Assembly (NCBI GenBank): GCA_963805975.1
Contig: CAWDVR010000005.1
Span: 160,001-224,000, forward strand
Length of the DNA stretch: 64,000 nucleotides
Direction of reading: 5' to 3'
Source: an uncultured Acidobacteriota bacterium
GTDB lineage: Bacteria > Acidobacteriota > Thermoanaerobaculia > Multivoradales > SZUA-115
Position 1 is the stretch's first letter; every line of letters starts with the position of its first letter. Position numbers and translations under genes: made by a program. The notes under the pieces were generated by a model, which was not told where the DNA came from, ran no database searches, and was given only the letters and a program-made list of their open reading frames with translations. Positions 54,901-63,900 of this stretch are shown here, in pieces.

Positions 54901-57900
54901 CCGGCACGCCGATGGGCACGGGGCGCAGGCCCGGATCGAGCACGAAGACGGCGAGGTTGGCGATGGGGCGGCCGATGGGGACGGTGGCCAAGTCCTCGCC
55001 CGGCGGGCAGGGACGGAAGGTGACATCGACCGCCGCCTCGGTGGGGCCGTAGAGGTTGTGGAGCGCGACCGCCCTGGATCTCGGTGCGCGACGGGGCTCT
55101 CGGGCTGCGGTGCTCGAGCTCCCTTCGGGCGGCCTGCGCTCCTCGCCCGAGAGCCCCGTCACGCGCGACAGCCGTTCGTGGAACCGCCGCACCAGGTCAC
55201 GGGGCAAAGCCTCGCCGCTGGCCATCACCTGGCGGAGGGCGAGATCACCCGCCTGCTCCTCCAAACCCGGATCGTCCAGGAACGCCTGGAGCATCGAGGG
55301 CACGAAGTGGGTGGTGGTGATGCGCTCCTCGGCCATCACCTGGCGGAGATAGGCCGGGTCTTTGTGGCCCTCGGGCCGCGCCATCACCAGCGTGGCACCG
55401 GTGGCGAGCGGCCAGAACAGCTCCCACACCGAGACGTCGAAGCTCGCCGGGGTCTTCTGGAGGACGCGGTCGCCGGGGCGGAGGTCGTACGCGTACTGCA
55501 TCCACCGCAGCCGGTTGGCGATGCCGCGGTGGCTGTTCATCACCCCCTTGGGCCGACCGGTCGAGCCCGAGGTGTAGATGACGTAAGCGAGATGACCGGG
55601 CGTGACGGTGGAGAAGATCTCCCGCACAGCCTCCGCATCGCCCGCGTCCGAGACCACGACCGGCCGGACGGAGACCGGCGCCCAGTCGAGCGCCTGCCCT
55701 TCGGCGGTCAGCACCAGCAGATCGCGAGCTTCCCCCGCCCCGTCCCCGCTCGACAGATCCTCGGCCATTCCCGCCAGTCGCTCGGGCGGGTAGGAGGGGT
55801 CGAAGGGCACGTAGGCGGCGCCTGCCTGGAGGATGGCGAGGAGGCCCACCGACAGCTCCAGCGAGCGCTCGATCGCGATGCCCACGGCCACGTCCGGCCC
55901 GGCGCCGAGGTCTCTCAAGCGGGAGGCGAGGGCCTGGGCGCGGCGGTCCAGCTCGGCGTAGGAGAGGGCCGCGCCCCCGGCCACCACCGCGACCGCGTCC
56001 GGGGTGCGGGCGATCTGCTCGGCGAGCATGCCGTGCAGCAGCTCGCTGCCGCCGTAGCTCTCCGCCGTGCCGTTCCACTCGGCCACCGCCTGCTGGCGCT
56101 CGGCCGGCGAGAGCAGCGCCAGGCTCGCGAGGGGCGCCGCGGGCGCCGAGGCCACGGCCGAGAGCAGGGCCTCGAAATGGGCGAGCAGGCGGCGGGCGGT
56201 CGCGGCGTCGAAGAGGTCGGTGGCGTAGCTCAGGTTGCCGCGCAGGCCGCCGTCGCCCTCGGTCATCCACAGCGCGAGGTCGAACTTCTCGCTGCCGCCG
56301 GCGTCGGCCAGCGGCGCGAGCGCGAGGTCGCCGGCAGCGGTGCCCGTCGCGGCCGGGGTGGACTCGAAGGAGAGCATCACCTGGAAGAGCGGCGAGCGGC
56401 TCATGTCGCGCGCCGGCTCCAGCGCCTCGACCAGCGTCTCGAAGGGCAGCGCCGCGCCGCCGAAGGCCTGGAGCGCGTCCTCGCGCACGCCGGCGAGGAG
56501 CGCCGTGAAGCCGGCTTCGGCGTCCACCCGGCCGCGCAGCACCAGGGTGTTGACGAAGAGGCCGATCAGCCCTTCGACCTCGCGCCGCTCGCGGCCCGCG
56601 ACCGGCGTGCCCAGGAGCAGGTCCGCCTGCCCGCTCCAGCGCGCGAGCAACGCTTCGAGCGCCGCGGCGAGCACCATGAACGGCGTGGCCCCGGCCTGCC
56701 GCGCCAGGGCGGCCACGGCGGCCGAGAGCTCGGGCGAGAGCGCGAACGGCACGCTCGCGCCGCGCCAGGTGGCGACCGCGGGGCGCGGCCGGTCGGCCGG
56801 CAGGTCGAGCGCCAGGGGCGCGCCCGCGAGCCGCCGGAGCGCGGCCTCGCGCTGCCCGGCGAGGGCCTCTTCCGAGAGCGCCCGCCGCTGCCAGGCGGCG
56901 AAGTCCGCGTACTGGAGCGGCAGCGGGGCGAGCGCCGGCGGCAGCCCGCGGGCCAGGGCGCCGTAGGCCGCCGCCAGCTCGGAGACCAAAAGGCCCATGG
57001 ACCAGCCGTCGCTCGCGATGTGGTGCACGGAGAGGAGCAGGGCGTGGTCGCCGGGGCCGAGGCGCAGCAGGCGGGCGCGGACGAGCGGCCCGCGGGCGAG
57101 GTCGAAGGGCAGAGCCGCCTCCGCCCGCGCGAGCTGCGCCAGCTCGGCCTCGCGCTCAGCGAGCGGCGCGAGGTCCACCACCGGCAGCGGCACCGGCTGC
57201 GCGGCCGCCACCACCTGCACCGGCTCGCCCTCCACTTCCTCGAAGGTGGTGCGCAGGGCCTCGTGGCGAGCCACGACCCGGGCCAGCGCCGAGCCGAGCG
57301 CCGCGGCGTCGAGCGGCCCGGAGAGCCGCACCGCCGCCGGGATGTTGTAGGCCGCGCTCCCGGGCTGGAGCTGATCGAGGAACCACAGCCGGCGCTGCGC
57401 GAAGGAGAGCGGGAAGCGGTCCCCTCCCGCAGGCGAGCGCGGCAGCGCTACCAGGGCGTGGTCGGGCGTCGCCCTGCCGGCCTCCGCGGCCCCGGCTTCT
57501 ATCGTCAGGGCCTCTATCGTCAGGGCCTCGATCGTCAGGGCGTCGATGCGCTCCGCCAGGCCGGCCACGGTCGGCTCCTCGAAGAGCGCGCGGAGCGGCA
57601 GCTCGGCGGAGAGCGTTTCGCGCAGCCGCGCCACCACCTGCGTGGCGAGGAGCGAGTGGCCGCCGAGCAGGAAGAAGTCGTCCAGCCGGCCGATCCGCTC
57701 GCGGCCCAGCACCTCGGCCCAGGCCTCGGCGATCCGCCGCTCGGTCTCGGTGGCCGGCGGCTCGTAGCTCGCCGCCTCGCCGGGGGCCTCGTCGGGCGCG
57801 GGCAGGGCCTTCCGGTCCACCTTGCCGGTGGCGGAGAGCGGCAGCGCCGGCAGCTCGACGAAGACCGACGGCACCATGAACTCCGGCAGCCGGCGGCGCA

Positions 57901-60900: not shown

Positions 60901-63900
60901 CGCGCTCGCGCCTCAGCACCTCGGCCCACAGGCCGGCCAGCACTTCCTCCACCGGGGTGGAGGGCGCACGGTACGGCGCCGCCTCGGCATCGCCGCCAGC
61001 GGCCCCCACCTCGATCGTTGCGAGGGCCTTGCGGTCGGCCTTGCCGCTGGGGGAGAGGGGCAGGGCGTCGAGCACGGCGAAGTAGGCCGGCACCATGTGC
61101 TCGGGCAGTCGCTCGCGGAGCGCGGAGCGCAGGGCGTCGGGCGAGAGAGAGCCCCTCACCCCAGCCCTCTCCCCGCTGTCGCGGGGCGAGGGGGCCGGAA
61201 GGGAGGCGCTCTGGTCTCCTCTCCCCGCTTGCGGGGAGAGGGTTAGGGTGAGGGGTTCCCTCTCCGGCACCAGGAAGGCGACGAGCGCCGGGCCGCCGGG
61301 AAGGTCGATGCGGAGCAGCACCGCCGCCTCGCGCACGCCGGGCAGCTCGGCGAGGGCGGACTCGATCTCTCCCAGCTCGATGCGGAAGCCACGGAGCTTG
61401 ATCTGGAAGTCCAGCCGGCCGAGGAACTCGACCTCGCCGTCGGGCCGCAGGCGGGTGCGGTCGCCGGTGCGGTAGAGACGGGCGCCGAGGGAACCGCTGG
61501 CGCCGTCCGGCACGAAGCGCTCGGCGGTGAGAGCGGGCCGGTCCCAGTAGCCGCGGGCGAGGCCGACACCGGCGAGGAAGAGCTCTCCCGGCACGCCGAT
61601 GGGCACGGGGCGCAGGCCCGGATCGAGGACGAAGACGGCGAGGTTGGCGATCGGCCGGCCGATGGGGACGATAGCCGAGATCCTCGCCCGGCGGGCAGGG
61701 ACGGAAGGTGACATCGACGGCCGCCTCGGTGGGGCCGTAGAGGTTGTGGAGCGCGACGAAGCGCCCTCGCCCAGATCCTTCGCTGCGCTCAGGATGACAA
61801 GCGGTAGGGTCTACCATTCCCGAGCCGTGGTGGGCGGCACCGTGCCCCAACTTGTCATCCTGAGCCAAGCCCTCGTCATCCTGAGCGCAGCGAAGGATCT
61901 GGCTGGGCGGGCCTTCGACGCGCGAGAGCCGTTCGTGGAACCGCCGCACCAGGTCTCTCGGCAACGCCTCGCCGCTGGCCATCACCTGGCGCAGCGCGAG
62001 GTCACCCGCCTGCTCCTCCAGGCCCGGATCGTCCAGGAACGCCTGGAGCATCGAGGGCACGAAGTGGGTGGTGGTGATGCGCTCCTCGGCCATCACCTGG
62101 CGCAGGTAGGCCGGGTCTTTGTGGCCTTCGGGTCGCGCCATGACCAGCGTGGCACCGGTGGCGAGCGGCCAGAACAGCTCCCACACCGAGACGTCGAAGC
62201 TCGCCGGGGTCTTCTGGAGGACGCGATCGCCGGGGCGCAGGTCGTACTCGTGCTGCATCCACCGCAGCCGGTTGGCGATGCCGCGGTGGGTGTTCATCAC
62301 CCCCTTGGGCCGGCCGGTCGAGCCCGAGGTGTAGATGACGTAGGCCAGGTGGCTCGGCGTGACGGCGGAGGAGTTCTCTCTCGCCGTCTCCACATCGCTC
62401 TCGATCGAGACCGGAACTGGCCGTACGGACTGGGGCGCCCAGTCGAGCGTCTGCCCTTCGGCGGTCAGAACCAGAAGCTCGCGAGCACTGCCCGCCCCGT
62501 CCCCGCTCGCCAAATCCTCGGCCATGCCCGCCAGTCGCTCGGGCGGGTAGGAGGGGTCGAAGGGCACGTAGGCGGCGCCTGCCTGGAGGATGGCGAGGAG
62601 GCCGACCGACAGCTCGAGCGAGCGCTCGATGGCGATGCCCACGGCCACGTCCGGCCCGGCGCCGAGGTCGGTCAAGCGGGAGGCGAGGGCCTGGGCGCGG
62701 CGGTCCAGCTCGGCGTAGGAGAGGGCCGCGCCCTCGGCCACCACGGCGACCGCGTCCGGGGTGCGGGCGATCTGCTCGGCGAGCATGCCGTGCAGCAGCT
62801 CGCTGCCGTCGTAGCTCTCCGCCGTGCCGTTCCACTCGGCCACCGCCTGCTGGCGCTCGGCCGGCGAGAGCAGCGAGACCGCGTCGTAGCGGCCGTGCGG
62901 GTCCGCGGCGAGCGCGGCGAGCGCGCGCTGGTAGTAGCCGGCCGCGGCGGCCATCAGCGAGGCGTCGAGGTCCGAGGCCCGGTAGTTGAGGGAGAAGGAC
63001 ATGCCGCCGCCCGCCGGATCGATCTCGAAGTGCGCGGTGAGCGGGAAGTTGGTCTCTTCGTAGCCGCGGTAGCCCAGCACCTCGGCCTGCGCTCCGCCGC
63101 CGGTCGCCAGGCGCGCCTCCACCTCCTGGTAGACGTGGTAGTGGATGAAGTTGAAGACCGACTCGAAGAGCTCCCGCCCGCCCTGCCGGCGCTGCAGCTC
63201 GACCAACGGGTAGCGGCGGAAGGGGAGGAGCGCCCGCTCGCGTTCGAAGGTCTCGAGCACCAGCGCTTCCCAGGTGCCGCCGCCGAGCTTCAGGCGCAGC
63301 GGCAGCGTGTTGAGGAACAGGCCCAGGGTGCGCTCACCCTCGGCGCGCTCCGGCCGGCCGTGGACGATGACGCCCGCCACCACGTCCGCCTGGCCGGAGA
63401 GGAGCGCCAGCACCCGCAGGTGGACGGCGAGGAACACGCTCTTGACCGGCACGGCGAGCGCGCGCGCCAGGGCCTCGACGCCGCGGCTGAGCGCGGGGTC
63501 GAGGGCCACGTCGAGCGACACGGAGTGCCCATCTGGGCGCCCGTCGCGCTCCGTGCTCGTCCCGCGCGCCTGCCGGGGCAGCTCGGCGAGGGTGCTGCCT
63601 TCGAGCTCGCGGTCCCAGAAGGCGTGCGCCTCGGGGGAGGCCAGCACCTCGCGCTCCAGCGCCACGAACTCGCGGAAGGGCACCGGCGGCGGGGGCGCCG
63701 TCACAGCCTGGGCGGCGTGCCCGCCGGCCAACTGGGTGGCGTAGCTCTCGAACAGCTCGGAGAGGAGCGAGGCGGCGCTCCAGCCGTCGAGCACCGAGTG
63801 GTGGAAGGAGAGGCTGAATTGAAAGCTCTCCTGGGGGAAGCTCTCCCCCGCCTCGTCGCTCCCCAGGCGGTGTACCAGGAAGCGGGCGAGGGGCGCCCGC

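What the first reader, a model, noticed from the sequence alone, without database searches (positions are those of the whole stretch)
55060..61920. Same site, different passenger: duplicated Ser A domains carry different hairpins at one position
Seen: A1 and A3 are near-identical, yet between FHERLSRV and [12 protein letters not shown]1 carries a family B element (61771-61902) and A3 a family C element (55090-55160). Inference: this is an insertion hotspot or cassette-like replacement after duplication, and it lies between specificity-code positions 301 and 322. The family C core (minus strand GAGGAGCGCAG...GAGCACCGCAGC) reminds me of RPE-1-like palindromes, but this is unverified.
Basis: partly seen in the sequence, partly recalled or inferred. 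Interest (0 to 1): 0.75.

Follow-up and report, generated by a model that had tools for sequence, protein, structure and literature searches.

The report
Repeat turnover in one NRPS loop
Three serine-type domains of one bacterial peptide-synthetase cluster carry the genome's own hairpin DNA repeats, in reading frame, in the same predicted floppy surface loop, most likely as tolerated passengers that pile up and get trimmed rather than as swapped functional cassettes.

Summary
In detail: A1 carries a family B hairpin (53 codons) and A3 a family C hairpin (30 codons), in frame, at the same A4-A5 position. A third Ser-type domain of the cluster (A0, outside the window) carries family C there, read in another frame. 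The empty site is 22-23 residues in 216 of 232 database domains; AlphaFold models the insert as low-confidence coil on an intact fold. A congeneric genome has the same cluster: A1/A3 are 97-98% alike within each species but 78-80% across, so they are likely old copies kept alike by gene conversion, not a recent duplication. Repeats fill the A2-A3 and A8-A9 loops too, and cross-species length differences keep frame (12 of 12). The inserts may share faint family B remnants (p about 0.01-0.02, post hoc). Best reading: a tolerant loop colonised by REP-like repeats in layers and trimmed by in-frame deletion. Family B fits CGTC-type REP anatomy; family C fails the RPE-1 profile. Reads could not be checked; A1 has a frameshift nearby. 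The scan noted the same kind of thing in eight findings from other genomes.

The parts
61758..61916 (-). A1 insert in the A4-A5 loop, 159 nt / 53 codons between two Val codons (both GTC, a possible 3-nt duplication): family B head-to-head dimer with a partial second arm and a spacer
61771..61902 (.). Family B hairpin (arms 61771-61811 and 61862-61902), CGTC-type REP anatomy
55070..55159 (-). A3 insert in the A4-A5 loop, 90 nt / 30 codons between two Val codons
55086..55164 (.). Family C hairpin: conserved 41-nt asymmetric core (55106-55146) inside a copy-specific stem that reaches into host codons
55070..55089 (-). Possible decayed family B right arm at the 3' end of the A3 insert (weak: 25 of 2000 shuffles, post hoc)
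61010..62874 (-). A1 domain, tract nearly identical to A3 (likely gene-conversion tract; ends approximate)
54415..56118 (-). A3 domain, Ser-type; predicted fold intact with the insert as coil (ends approximate)
61671..61680 (-). One extra base in A1 relative to A3, shifting the frame just after motif A5 (sequencing error or real lesion, unresolved)
61143..61264 (.). Complete family A palindrome in frame in the A8-A9 loop of A1
54546..54577 (-). Left-arm remnant of the same family A element in the A8-A9 loop of A3 (93 nt shorter, in frame)
52201..52279 (.). Family B dimer in frame in the A2-A3 loop of the next module; also present, in a longer form, in congeneric G001
51153..51274 (.). Family A in frame in an A8-A9 loop
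41354..41501 (.). Family A in frame in an A8-A9 loop
25365..25471 (.). Family A in frame in an A8-A9 loop; orthologous copy in G001 differs by 3 nt

Best explanation
The genome's dispersed hairpin repeats sit in frame in the A4-A5 loop of three Ser-type adenylation domains, a loop predicted to be surface coil, and they are most likely neutral passengers that arrived in layers and were trimmed differently in each copy while gene conversion likely kept the rest of A1 and A3 alike. Shown: three filled loops in one cluster, members of genome-wide families, frame kept, empty site of 22-23 residues elsewhere, and paralogs closer within than across species. Inferred: a family B element entered the loop in an ancestor of these domains; family C entered in or beside it; in-frame deletions left B in A1, C plus a possible B scrap in A3, and C between B-like tails in A0. 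Selection is inferred to act only on frame and fold, not on the peptide.
For: Distance from the A4-side GE motif to the A5 Asn: 77 (A1), 54 (A3), 78 (A0) against a median of 22 and maximum of 36 in 232 database Ser-type domains. The closest empty sites (22, 22, 23, 25) map residue for residue onto [12 protein letters not shown]. The loop tolerates length change generally: 24 of 173 surveyed domains are 28 or longer, 5 are 50 or longer, one with an unrelated palindrome. AlphaFold: mean pLDDT 87, insert is coil between helix 301-315 and strand 346-351 with block pLDDT 54 and 46. A paper names A4-A5, A2-A3 and A8-A9 as sites where whole domains interrupt A domains (PMC8097286 passage). Repeats occupy these three loops, plus a few linker and C-domain sites, in this cluster. 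Family C is read in different frames in A3 and A0, so no peptide is conserved. Concerted evolution: N-terminal 300 nt 97.3% (G000 pair), 98.0% (G001 pair), 78-80% across species. The A8-A9 loop of the same two domains shows four in-frame trimmed states of one family A element in two species. Cross-species length differences are multiples of three at 8 of 8 mappable G000 sites and 4 of 4 G001-only sites. Hints of shared layers: A0 vs A1 inserts 34 of 2000 shuffles; a shared 14-base pattern occurs 3 times genome-wide, two of them these loops in the same frame; A3 tail vs B arm 25 of 2000; A3 and A0 C copies are mutual nearest neighbours in their inner stems (16 of 18 nt); A0 and A3 are sisters in the tree of the part after the loop (SH-aLRT 89, quick tree).
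Against: The shared-layer signals are weak and post hoc; part-wise tests A1-left vs A0-left (115 of 2000), A1-right vs A0-right (334 of 2000) and A0-right vs A3-right (1427 of 2000) are not significant. 9 of 210 C pairs match at least as well as A3/A0, and their cores are different length variants (41 vs 42 nt). A0 is only 59% identical to A3 and is unresolved in the tree of the part before the loop. Going from one frame to the other in a single inherited C copy needs compensating indels. The G001 orthologs of all three loops fall in assembly gaps, so no ancestral state was seen. The suspected GTAG-type remnant in the A1 spacer is not significant (44 of 500). The in-frame count is partly expected of regions inside continuous ORFs; 3 further G000 sites were not mappable and 7 not covered. 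A1 itself is frameshifted in this assembly.
Confidence: 0.6

Rival explanations
1. Independent landings: after the last conversion between A1 and A3, whole B and C elements inserted separately at an empty, tolerant Val codon (or were copied in from the genome's repeat pool), and A0 gained its C separately. The loop is a true recurrent target and the shared remnants are chance.
For: B and C cores are non-homologous (761 of 2000). A1's B arms match the genome consensus. A1's insert is flanked by GTC on both sides. G001-only and G000-only insertions exist elsewhere in the cluster. An unrelated palindrome fills the loop in G027.
Against: It needs 2 of only 21 family C copies to hit the same loop of paralogs with the same inner stem. 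A1 and A3 share both junctions, including the extra Val. Near-consensus arms also persist in elements older than the species split, so pristine arms do not prove recency.
Confidence: 0.23
2. Programmed cassette exchange: a dedicated nuclease or recombinase recognises the hairpin site and swaps one repeat cassette for another.
For: Same end points in A1 and A3. 18 repeat copies in this 91-kb cluster against 0 of families A-C in 146 kb of other NRPS regions. A DUF559 gene is flanked by family A repeats.
Against: The 18 copies are not independent (spread with modules, many shared with G001). Trimmed states have ragged ends. No Y1_Tnp/RAYT gene in the 96%-complete genome. No direct repeats flank family C (0 of 21). 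No candidate enzyme is linked to B or C: the one GIY-YIG match lies in a 638-aa frame.
Confidence: 0.07
3. The inserts are selected because the extra peptide or the RNA hairpin tunes the synthetase (specificity, domain docking, translation pausing).
For: The site lies between code positions 301 and 322. Family A inserts at A8-A9 keep one reading frame across two species.
Against: Three unrelated peptides occur at one site, C is read in two frames, the predicted structure is low-confidence coil, there is no family hit, and the code residues around the loop are the same in A1 and A3.
Confidence: 0.04
4. Assembly artefact or a decaying cluster: the A1/A3 difference is a consensus error between near-identical copies, or the genes are no longer under selection.
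For: A1 frameshift. 13 strong frame-switch calls in the cluster. G000 has 4 frame switches where G001 ORFs are continuous, among the 19 of 38 ORFs processed before the script failed. No reads were seen.
Against: Each insert is a coherent in-frame member of a genome-wide family. A0, at 59% identity, shows the same thing. Frame-switch calls are about as dense genome-wide (11 per 100 kb, false positives included) as in the cluster (14). G001, an independent assembly, has the same kind of inserts in intact ORFs.
Confidence: 0.06

Closest known systems
Rickettsia palindromic elements (RPEs), as summarised in PMC10969869 (passages read) and PMC3733652 (passages)
   Same: Short dispersed palindromes, mostly outside genes, some inserted in frame in protein genes and adding a peptide.
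   Different: RPEs are described as about 150 bp with a conserved peptide, scattered over unrelated genes. Here the elements are shorter, family C is read in several frames, copies concentrate in three loops of one NRPS cluster, and different families occupy one loop in paralogs. Family C does not match the RPE1 profile.
CGTC-tagged REPs (PMC3733652, section 6 and passages read)
   Same: Family B has a TGTC/CGTC tag, an 8-bp stem beginning A,T, a 5-nt loop, inverted dimers and no RAYT in the genome. Intragenic REP dimers encoding 20-82 residues are described there.
   Different: Two G-A mismatches in the stem, tail not CCA, both dimer orientations common (16 and 12). The paper's consensus figure could not be seen. 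None of the passages read mentions NRPS.
Interrupted adenylation domains (PMC8097286, PMC8949500, PMC11355689, PMC8341866; passages read)
   Same: Insertions at A8-A9 and A2-A3, and per PMC8097286 also A4-A5.
   Different: Those inserts are folded enzymes of hundreds of residues; these are 30-55 residue coils translated from repeat DNA. The PMC8341866 passages list a2-a3, a6-a7 and a8-a9 and the terms a4-a5 / 'a4 and a5' did not occur.
Intra-cluster A-domain recombination (PMC8097286 passages) and REP-like repeats inside mcy genes (PMC4766695 passages)
   Same: Recombination confined largely to the A domain between modules of one cluster; REP-like repeats inside NRPS/PKS genes.
   Different: There the exchange changes specificity, or the repeats are IS targets. 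Here it homogenises two Ser domains, and the repeats themselves are the variable coding part.

Membership tests
CGTC-tagged REP (family B) | Terminal CGTC/TGTC tag | tested here: met
   Of 91 arms the first tag base is T in 77 and C in 12; the next three are G 91, T 89, C 91 (definition)
CGTC-tagged REP (family B) | 8-9 bp stem starting A,T with 4-5 nt loop | tested here: met
   Consensus gives an 8-position stem (6 Watson-Crick pairs, 2 G-A mismatches) and a 5-nt loop
CGTC-tagged REP (family B) | Short tail mostly CCA | tested here: not met
   Tail is CTGG followed by G-rich bases; the paper says 'most', so this is not strict
CGTC-tagged REP (family B) | Predominantly head-to-head dimers | tested here: inconclusive
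   16 tag-inward and 12 tag-outward among 28 dimers
CGTC-tagged REP (family B) | Match to a published CGTC-1 to -4 consensus | not testable with these tools
   The consensus is in a figure that is not held
RPE-1 (family C) | Match to the RPE1 peptide profile TIGR01045 | tested here: not met
   Six-frame genome search: one match at E 2, not at a family C locus, none over cut-off; 0 NCBIfam hits for the three loop peptides. The profile covers one frame of an AT-rich element, so remote DNA kinship is not excluded
RPE-1 (family C) | About 150 bp with one conserved encoded peptide | tested here: not met
   Core 39-42 nt plus variable stems; the 3 coding copies are read in three different ways (definition)
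RPE-1 (family C) | In-frame insertion in protein genes (works-like feature) | tested here: met
   3 of 21 copies called in frame
RPE-1 (family C) | DNA similarity to RPE-1 | not tested
   No RPE-1 DNA came from any tool; the plasmid search gave only chance-level hits; the original paper was not held
MITE | Target-site duplication | tested here: inconclusive
   0 of 21 family C stems are flanked by 3-5 nt direct repeats; A1's insert has GTC on both sides, A3's has GTG and GTC
MITE / REPIN | Cognate transposase in the genome | tested here: inconclusive
   No Y1_Tnp; a DUF559 gene is flanked by family A only; other transposase families were not searched
Interrupted A domain | Inserted auxiliary catalytic domain | tested here: not met
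   30-53 residue inserts, no family hit, predicted coil
Interrupted A domain | Position at a recognised interruption site | tested here: met
   Between motifs A4 and A5; site named in PMC8097286, not in the PMC8341866 passages
Ser-activating A domain | Ser-type code and nearest solved structures | tested here: met
   Code read by eye as DVWHMSLVD (numbering recalled); top fold matches Txo2, EntF, Txo1 serine module, FscH with Ser-AMP further down. Activity itself untested
Programmed cassette systems (shufflon, integron, DGR) | Dedicated recombinase or reverse transcriptase with fixed recombination sites | not tested
   No search for these enzymes near the cluster was run; ragged trimmed states argue against fixed sites

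The most novel reading that the evidence does not exclude
The hairpin-filled A4-A5 loop is an active exchange site inside the specificity subdomain: repeats are swapped there by a nuclease-driven or hairpin-guided process and set the ends of gene-conversion tracts between modules, so mobile palindromes steer the shuffling of NRPS substrate specificity in Thermoanaerobaculia.
Probability: 0.07. Interest if true: 0.8.

Novelty: new variant of a known kind. Interest (0 to 1): 0.38.

Why it matters
In-frame palindromic repeats are known from Rickettsia and from intragenic REPs, so the class is not new. This case adds three paralogous domains with different repeat content at one loop inside the substrate-binding subdomain, and a congeneric cluster showing that such inserts outlive speciation and change length in whole codons. 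If the enzymes are active, the A4-A5 loop takes 30-55 arbitrary residues, which is useful for NRPS engineering (tags, domain insertion). It also warns that such inserts split Pfam and HMM matches and can upset specificity prediction. I found no paper describing REP-like in-frame inserts in A-domain loops or concerted evolution under those terms (searches; open-access library only).

Tried and rejected
Rfam scan of 50000-64000: only sub-threshold miRNA-like hairpin hits. RPE1 profile: no match. RAYT search: none; GIY-YIG: one match in a long frame. Family C in plasmids: chance-level hits. An exact family C pattern matched 6 stretches in 2 Thermoanaerobaculia genomes of the GTDB collection. Close orthologs of the loop: none in 40 relatives, in the metagenome pattern scan (4 hits, all empty sites), in three protein searches (best listed identities up to 62%, 58% and 75% on partial coverage) or among cluster representatives (the only full hit is the window's own protein). 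G001 contigs break on both sides of the loop in both domains. A GTAG-type remnant in A1's spacer: 44 of 500 shuffles, not accepted. Recent whole-module duplication: rejected, since identity is confined to the A domain and the pair exists in G001. My gene and frameshift calls are home-made codon models and include false positives; the cross-check stopped after 19 of 38 ORFs. The tree after the loop is a quick tree without bootstrap and leaves out A1 and one other row (34 of 36). Synonymous versus non-synonymous divergence by segment was not computed, so whether the loops escape conversion or simply change fast is open. Supplementary files of PMC3733652 (list of intragenic REPs) were not consulted and may name NRPS targets.
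Full report
Observation. The two domains lie on the minus strand of a large NRPS cluster (window = G000:C5:160001-224000, a 5.36-Mb, 70% GC assembly in 6 contigs). An exact family C pattern hit only Thermoanaerobaculia genomes (6 stretches, 2 genomes), which suggests that class for the host; I did not determine this otherwise. A1 has 53 codons and A3 30 codons between two Val codons of FHERLSRV...[11 protein letters not shown]. Both inserts form hairpins far more stable than shuffles (z -8.5 and -5.0). They belong to dispersed families: B 63 loci, C 21, and a third family A 86. 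A1 also has one extra base at 61680-61671 that shifts the frame after motif A5. Reads could not be examined. Frame-switch calls run at about 11 per 100 kb genome-wide and 14 in this cluster (false positives included). G000 switches frame at 4 places where the congeneric G001 has continuous ORFs (19 of 38 ORFs processed). A consensus error is plausible but unproven.

A third copy. A scan of all A5 motifs in the genome (52 matches, a few spurious) found long A4-A5 loops in three Ser-type domains of this cluster: 77 residues (A1), 54 (A3) and 78 (A0, C5:258802, outside the window). The fourth clear Ser-type domain, on C1, has 29. A0 carries family C, read in a different frame from A3's.

The empty site. 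In 232 Ser-type domains from protein searches the distance is 22 or 23 in 216, with a maximum of 36. The four metagenome hits with the same A4 context have 22, 22, 23 and 25 and align residue for residue with [12 protein letters not shown] (23). One Val is therefore extra in both A1 and A3; in A1 both are GTC, a possible 3-nt duplication. Among 173 measurable domains from G000 and 17 related genomes (selected NRPS regions, not whole genomes), 24 are 28 or longer and 5 are 50 or longer: the three here, one with an unrelated palindrome in another family (L009/L048) and one with a tandem repeat in G001. AlphaFold gives A3 a normal fold (pLDDT 87, pTM 0.85) with the insert as low-confidence coil between a helix and a strand. 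The nearest structures are Txo2, EntF and Txo1. The loop is between code positions 301 and 322 in sequence (numbering recalled), but the code residues are the same in both copies. PMC8097286 (passages) names A8-A9, A2-A3 and A4-A5 as sites where whole domains interrupt A domains. PMC8949500 and PMC11355689 (passages) name the first two; PMC8341866 (passages) adds a6-a7 and does not mention a4-a5.

The cluster is full of such inserts. 18 copies of families A-C lie in this 91-kb cluster, 15 of them called in frame, out of 20 in-frame calls among 170 loci genome-wide. Four other NRPS regions (146 kb) have none of these families, though one has a different hairpin in an A2-A3 loop. Family A sits in the A8-A9 loop of 7 domains; B and A sit in A2-A3 loops; single copies lie in a C domain and a linker. 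These are not 18 independent events, since many spread with module copying.

History from a congeneric genome. G001 has the orthologous cluster at about 80% nucleotide identity. Its contigs break near motif A2 and resume near A7 in both Ser domains, and A0's ortholog is in a gap, so the loop itself is unseen. The flanks are informative. Over 300 nt at the N-terminus the A1/A3 pair is 97.3% identical in G000 and 98.0% in G001 but 78-80% across species; after the A8-A9 loop, 98% within and 89-91% across. Identity is confined to the A domain. I infer an old pair kept alike by gene conversion; A-domain-limited recombination within clusters is documented. Inside the tract the divergent islands are the three loops (A2-A3 77-85%, A4-A5, A8-A9). 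At A8-A9 one family A element occurs in four in-frame states: complete (G000 A1), left arm only (G000 A3), and two right-hand remnants (G001). Length differences at orthologous repeat sites are multiples of three at 8 of 8 mappable G000 sites (3 unmappable, 7 uncovered) and 4 of 4 G001-only sites. So inserts here are old, are gained and lost, and keep frame.

Are the two passengers independent? The B and C bodies are unrelated (761 of 2000 shuffles). Faint shared edges exist. A0 and A1 align from the first base of A1's insert (34 of 2000), and a 14-base pattern occurs 3 times in the genome, twice in these loops in the same frame. A3's tail resembles a B right arm (25 of 2000). These tests were chosen after looking, and three part-wise tests were not significant (115, 334 and 1427 of 2000). 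The A3 and A0 C copies are each other's nearest in inner stem (16 of 18 nt), but 9 of 210 pairs do as well and their cores differ by one base. A0 and A3 group after the loop (SH-aLRT 89, quick tree) but not before it. C lies within 200 nt of B at 2 of 21 G000 loci and in 2 of 6 loci from other genomes, a weak sign that repeats land near repeats. A B variant with a partial second arm occurs once in G000 (A1) and three times in G001, twice in the A2-A3 loop of a neighbouring module.

Mechanism. Most likely (0.6): a structurally tolerant loop took a B element, then C, and in-frame deletions left different layers in each copy while conversion kept the flanks alike. Shown: positions, frames, family membership, empty site, within-versus-across identity, trimmed states at A8-A9. 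Inferred: order of events, layering at A4-A5, neutrality, conversion. Independent fresh landings (0.23) remain open. Programmed exchange (0.07) lacks an enzyme: no Y1_Tnp, a DUF559 gene flanked by family A only, and no direct repeats around C (0 of 21). Function of the peptide (0.04) and artefact or decay (0.06) are unlikely.

Comparison. It works like Rickettsia palindromic elements and intragenic REPs (PMC10969869 passages; PMC3733652 passages and section 6). Family B meets the tag, stem and loop criteria of CGTC-type REPs but not the usual tail, and dimer orientation is mixed; the same arm is common in 3 of 7 other genomes of the family. Family C fails the RPE1 profile and has no conserved peptide, so it is not filed as RPE-1; I found no description of it. 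These are not interrupted A domains in the enzymatic sense. PMC4766695 (passages) reports REP-like repeats inside mcy genes as IS targets; PMC3337134 (passages) describes partial REPIN excision leaving remnants. Eight earlier notes of this scan describe in-frame repeats in A-domain loops in other genomes. They are unchecked AI notes, seen after my reading was formed, and are not evidence; they do show that the scan meets this often.

Verdict. Real, a variant of a known phenomenon, most likely neutral. The A4-A5 position, the third paralog in another frame and the concerted evolution are the additions. Interest 0.38.

Noticed in passing
G000:C3:920185-920505: A DUF559 gene (E 3e-36) is flanked on both sides by family A palindromes, a candidate mobiliser for that family.
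   Followed up: partly
G000 genome-wide, e.g. C2:255401, C3:188968: A fourth repeat family, GTAG-tagged REP-like (29 pattern matches, a few spurious), exists although no Y1_Tnp/RAYT gene was found.
   Followed up: partly
window about 30900-45400 (C5:190966-205389): 11 strong frame-switch calls in about 14.5 kb of near-identical modules, likely unpolished consensus errors in repeats, or local decay.
   Followed up: partly
G000:C1, NRPS region about 1,045,500: An A2-A3 loop of 100 residues holds a hairpin (inverted-repeat score 22) of none of families A-C.
   Followed up: no
L096:1851-2297 (G001): A family B element adds 261 nt in frame at a site where G000 has none; further G001-only family A inserts of +60, +117 and +36 nt.
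   Followed up: partly
L009:2320-2470 / L048; L029: Other palindromic or short-period repeats (Lys/Asp/Thr-rich on one arm, Val/Leu-rich on the other) are read in frame in A4-A5 and A2-A3 loops of other genomes.
   Followed up: no
L034:1976 region (G001) vs G000:C5:242430: An orthologous non-Ser A domain has a 50-residue A4-A5 loop with a 5-residue tandem repeat in G001 and a short loop in G000.
   Followed up: no
all 21 family C copies: The outer stems differ from copy to copy yet stay almost perfectly complementary (11-35 pairs), as if one arm is copied from the other; in A3 the stem includes host codons.
   Followed up: no
window 57540-57495: A short tandem repeat (LTIEA three times) in the T-C linker.
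   Followed up: no
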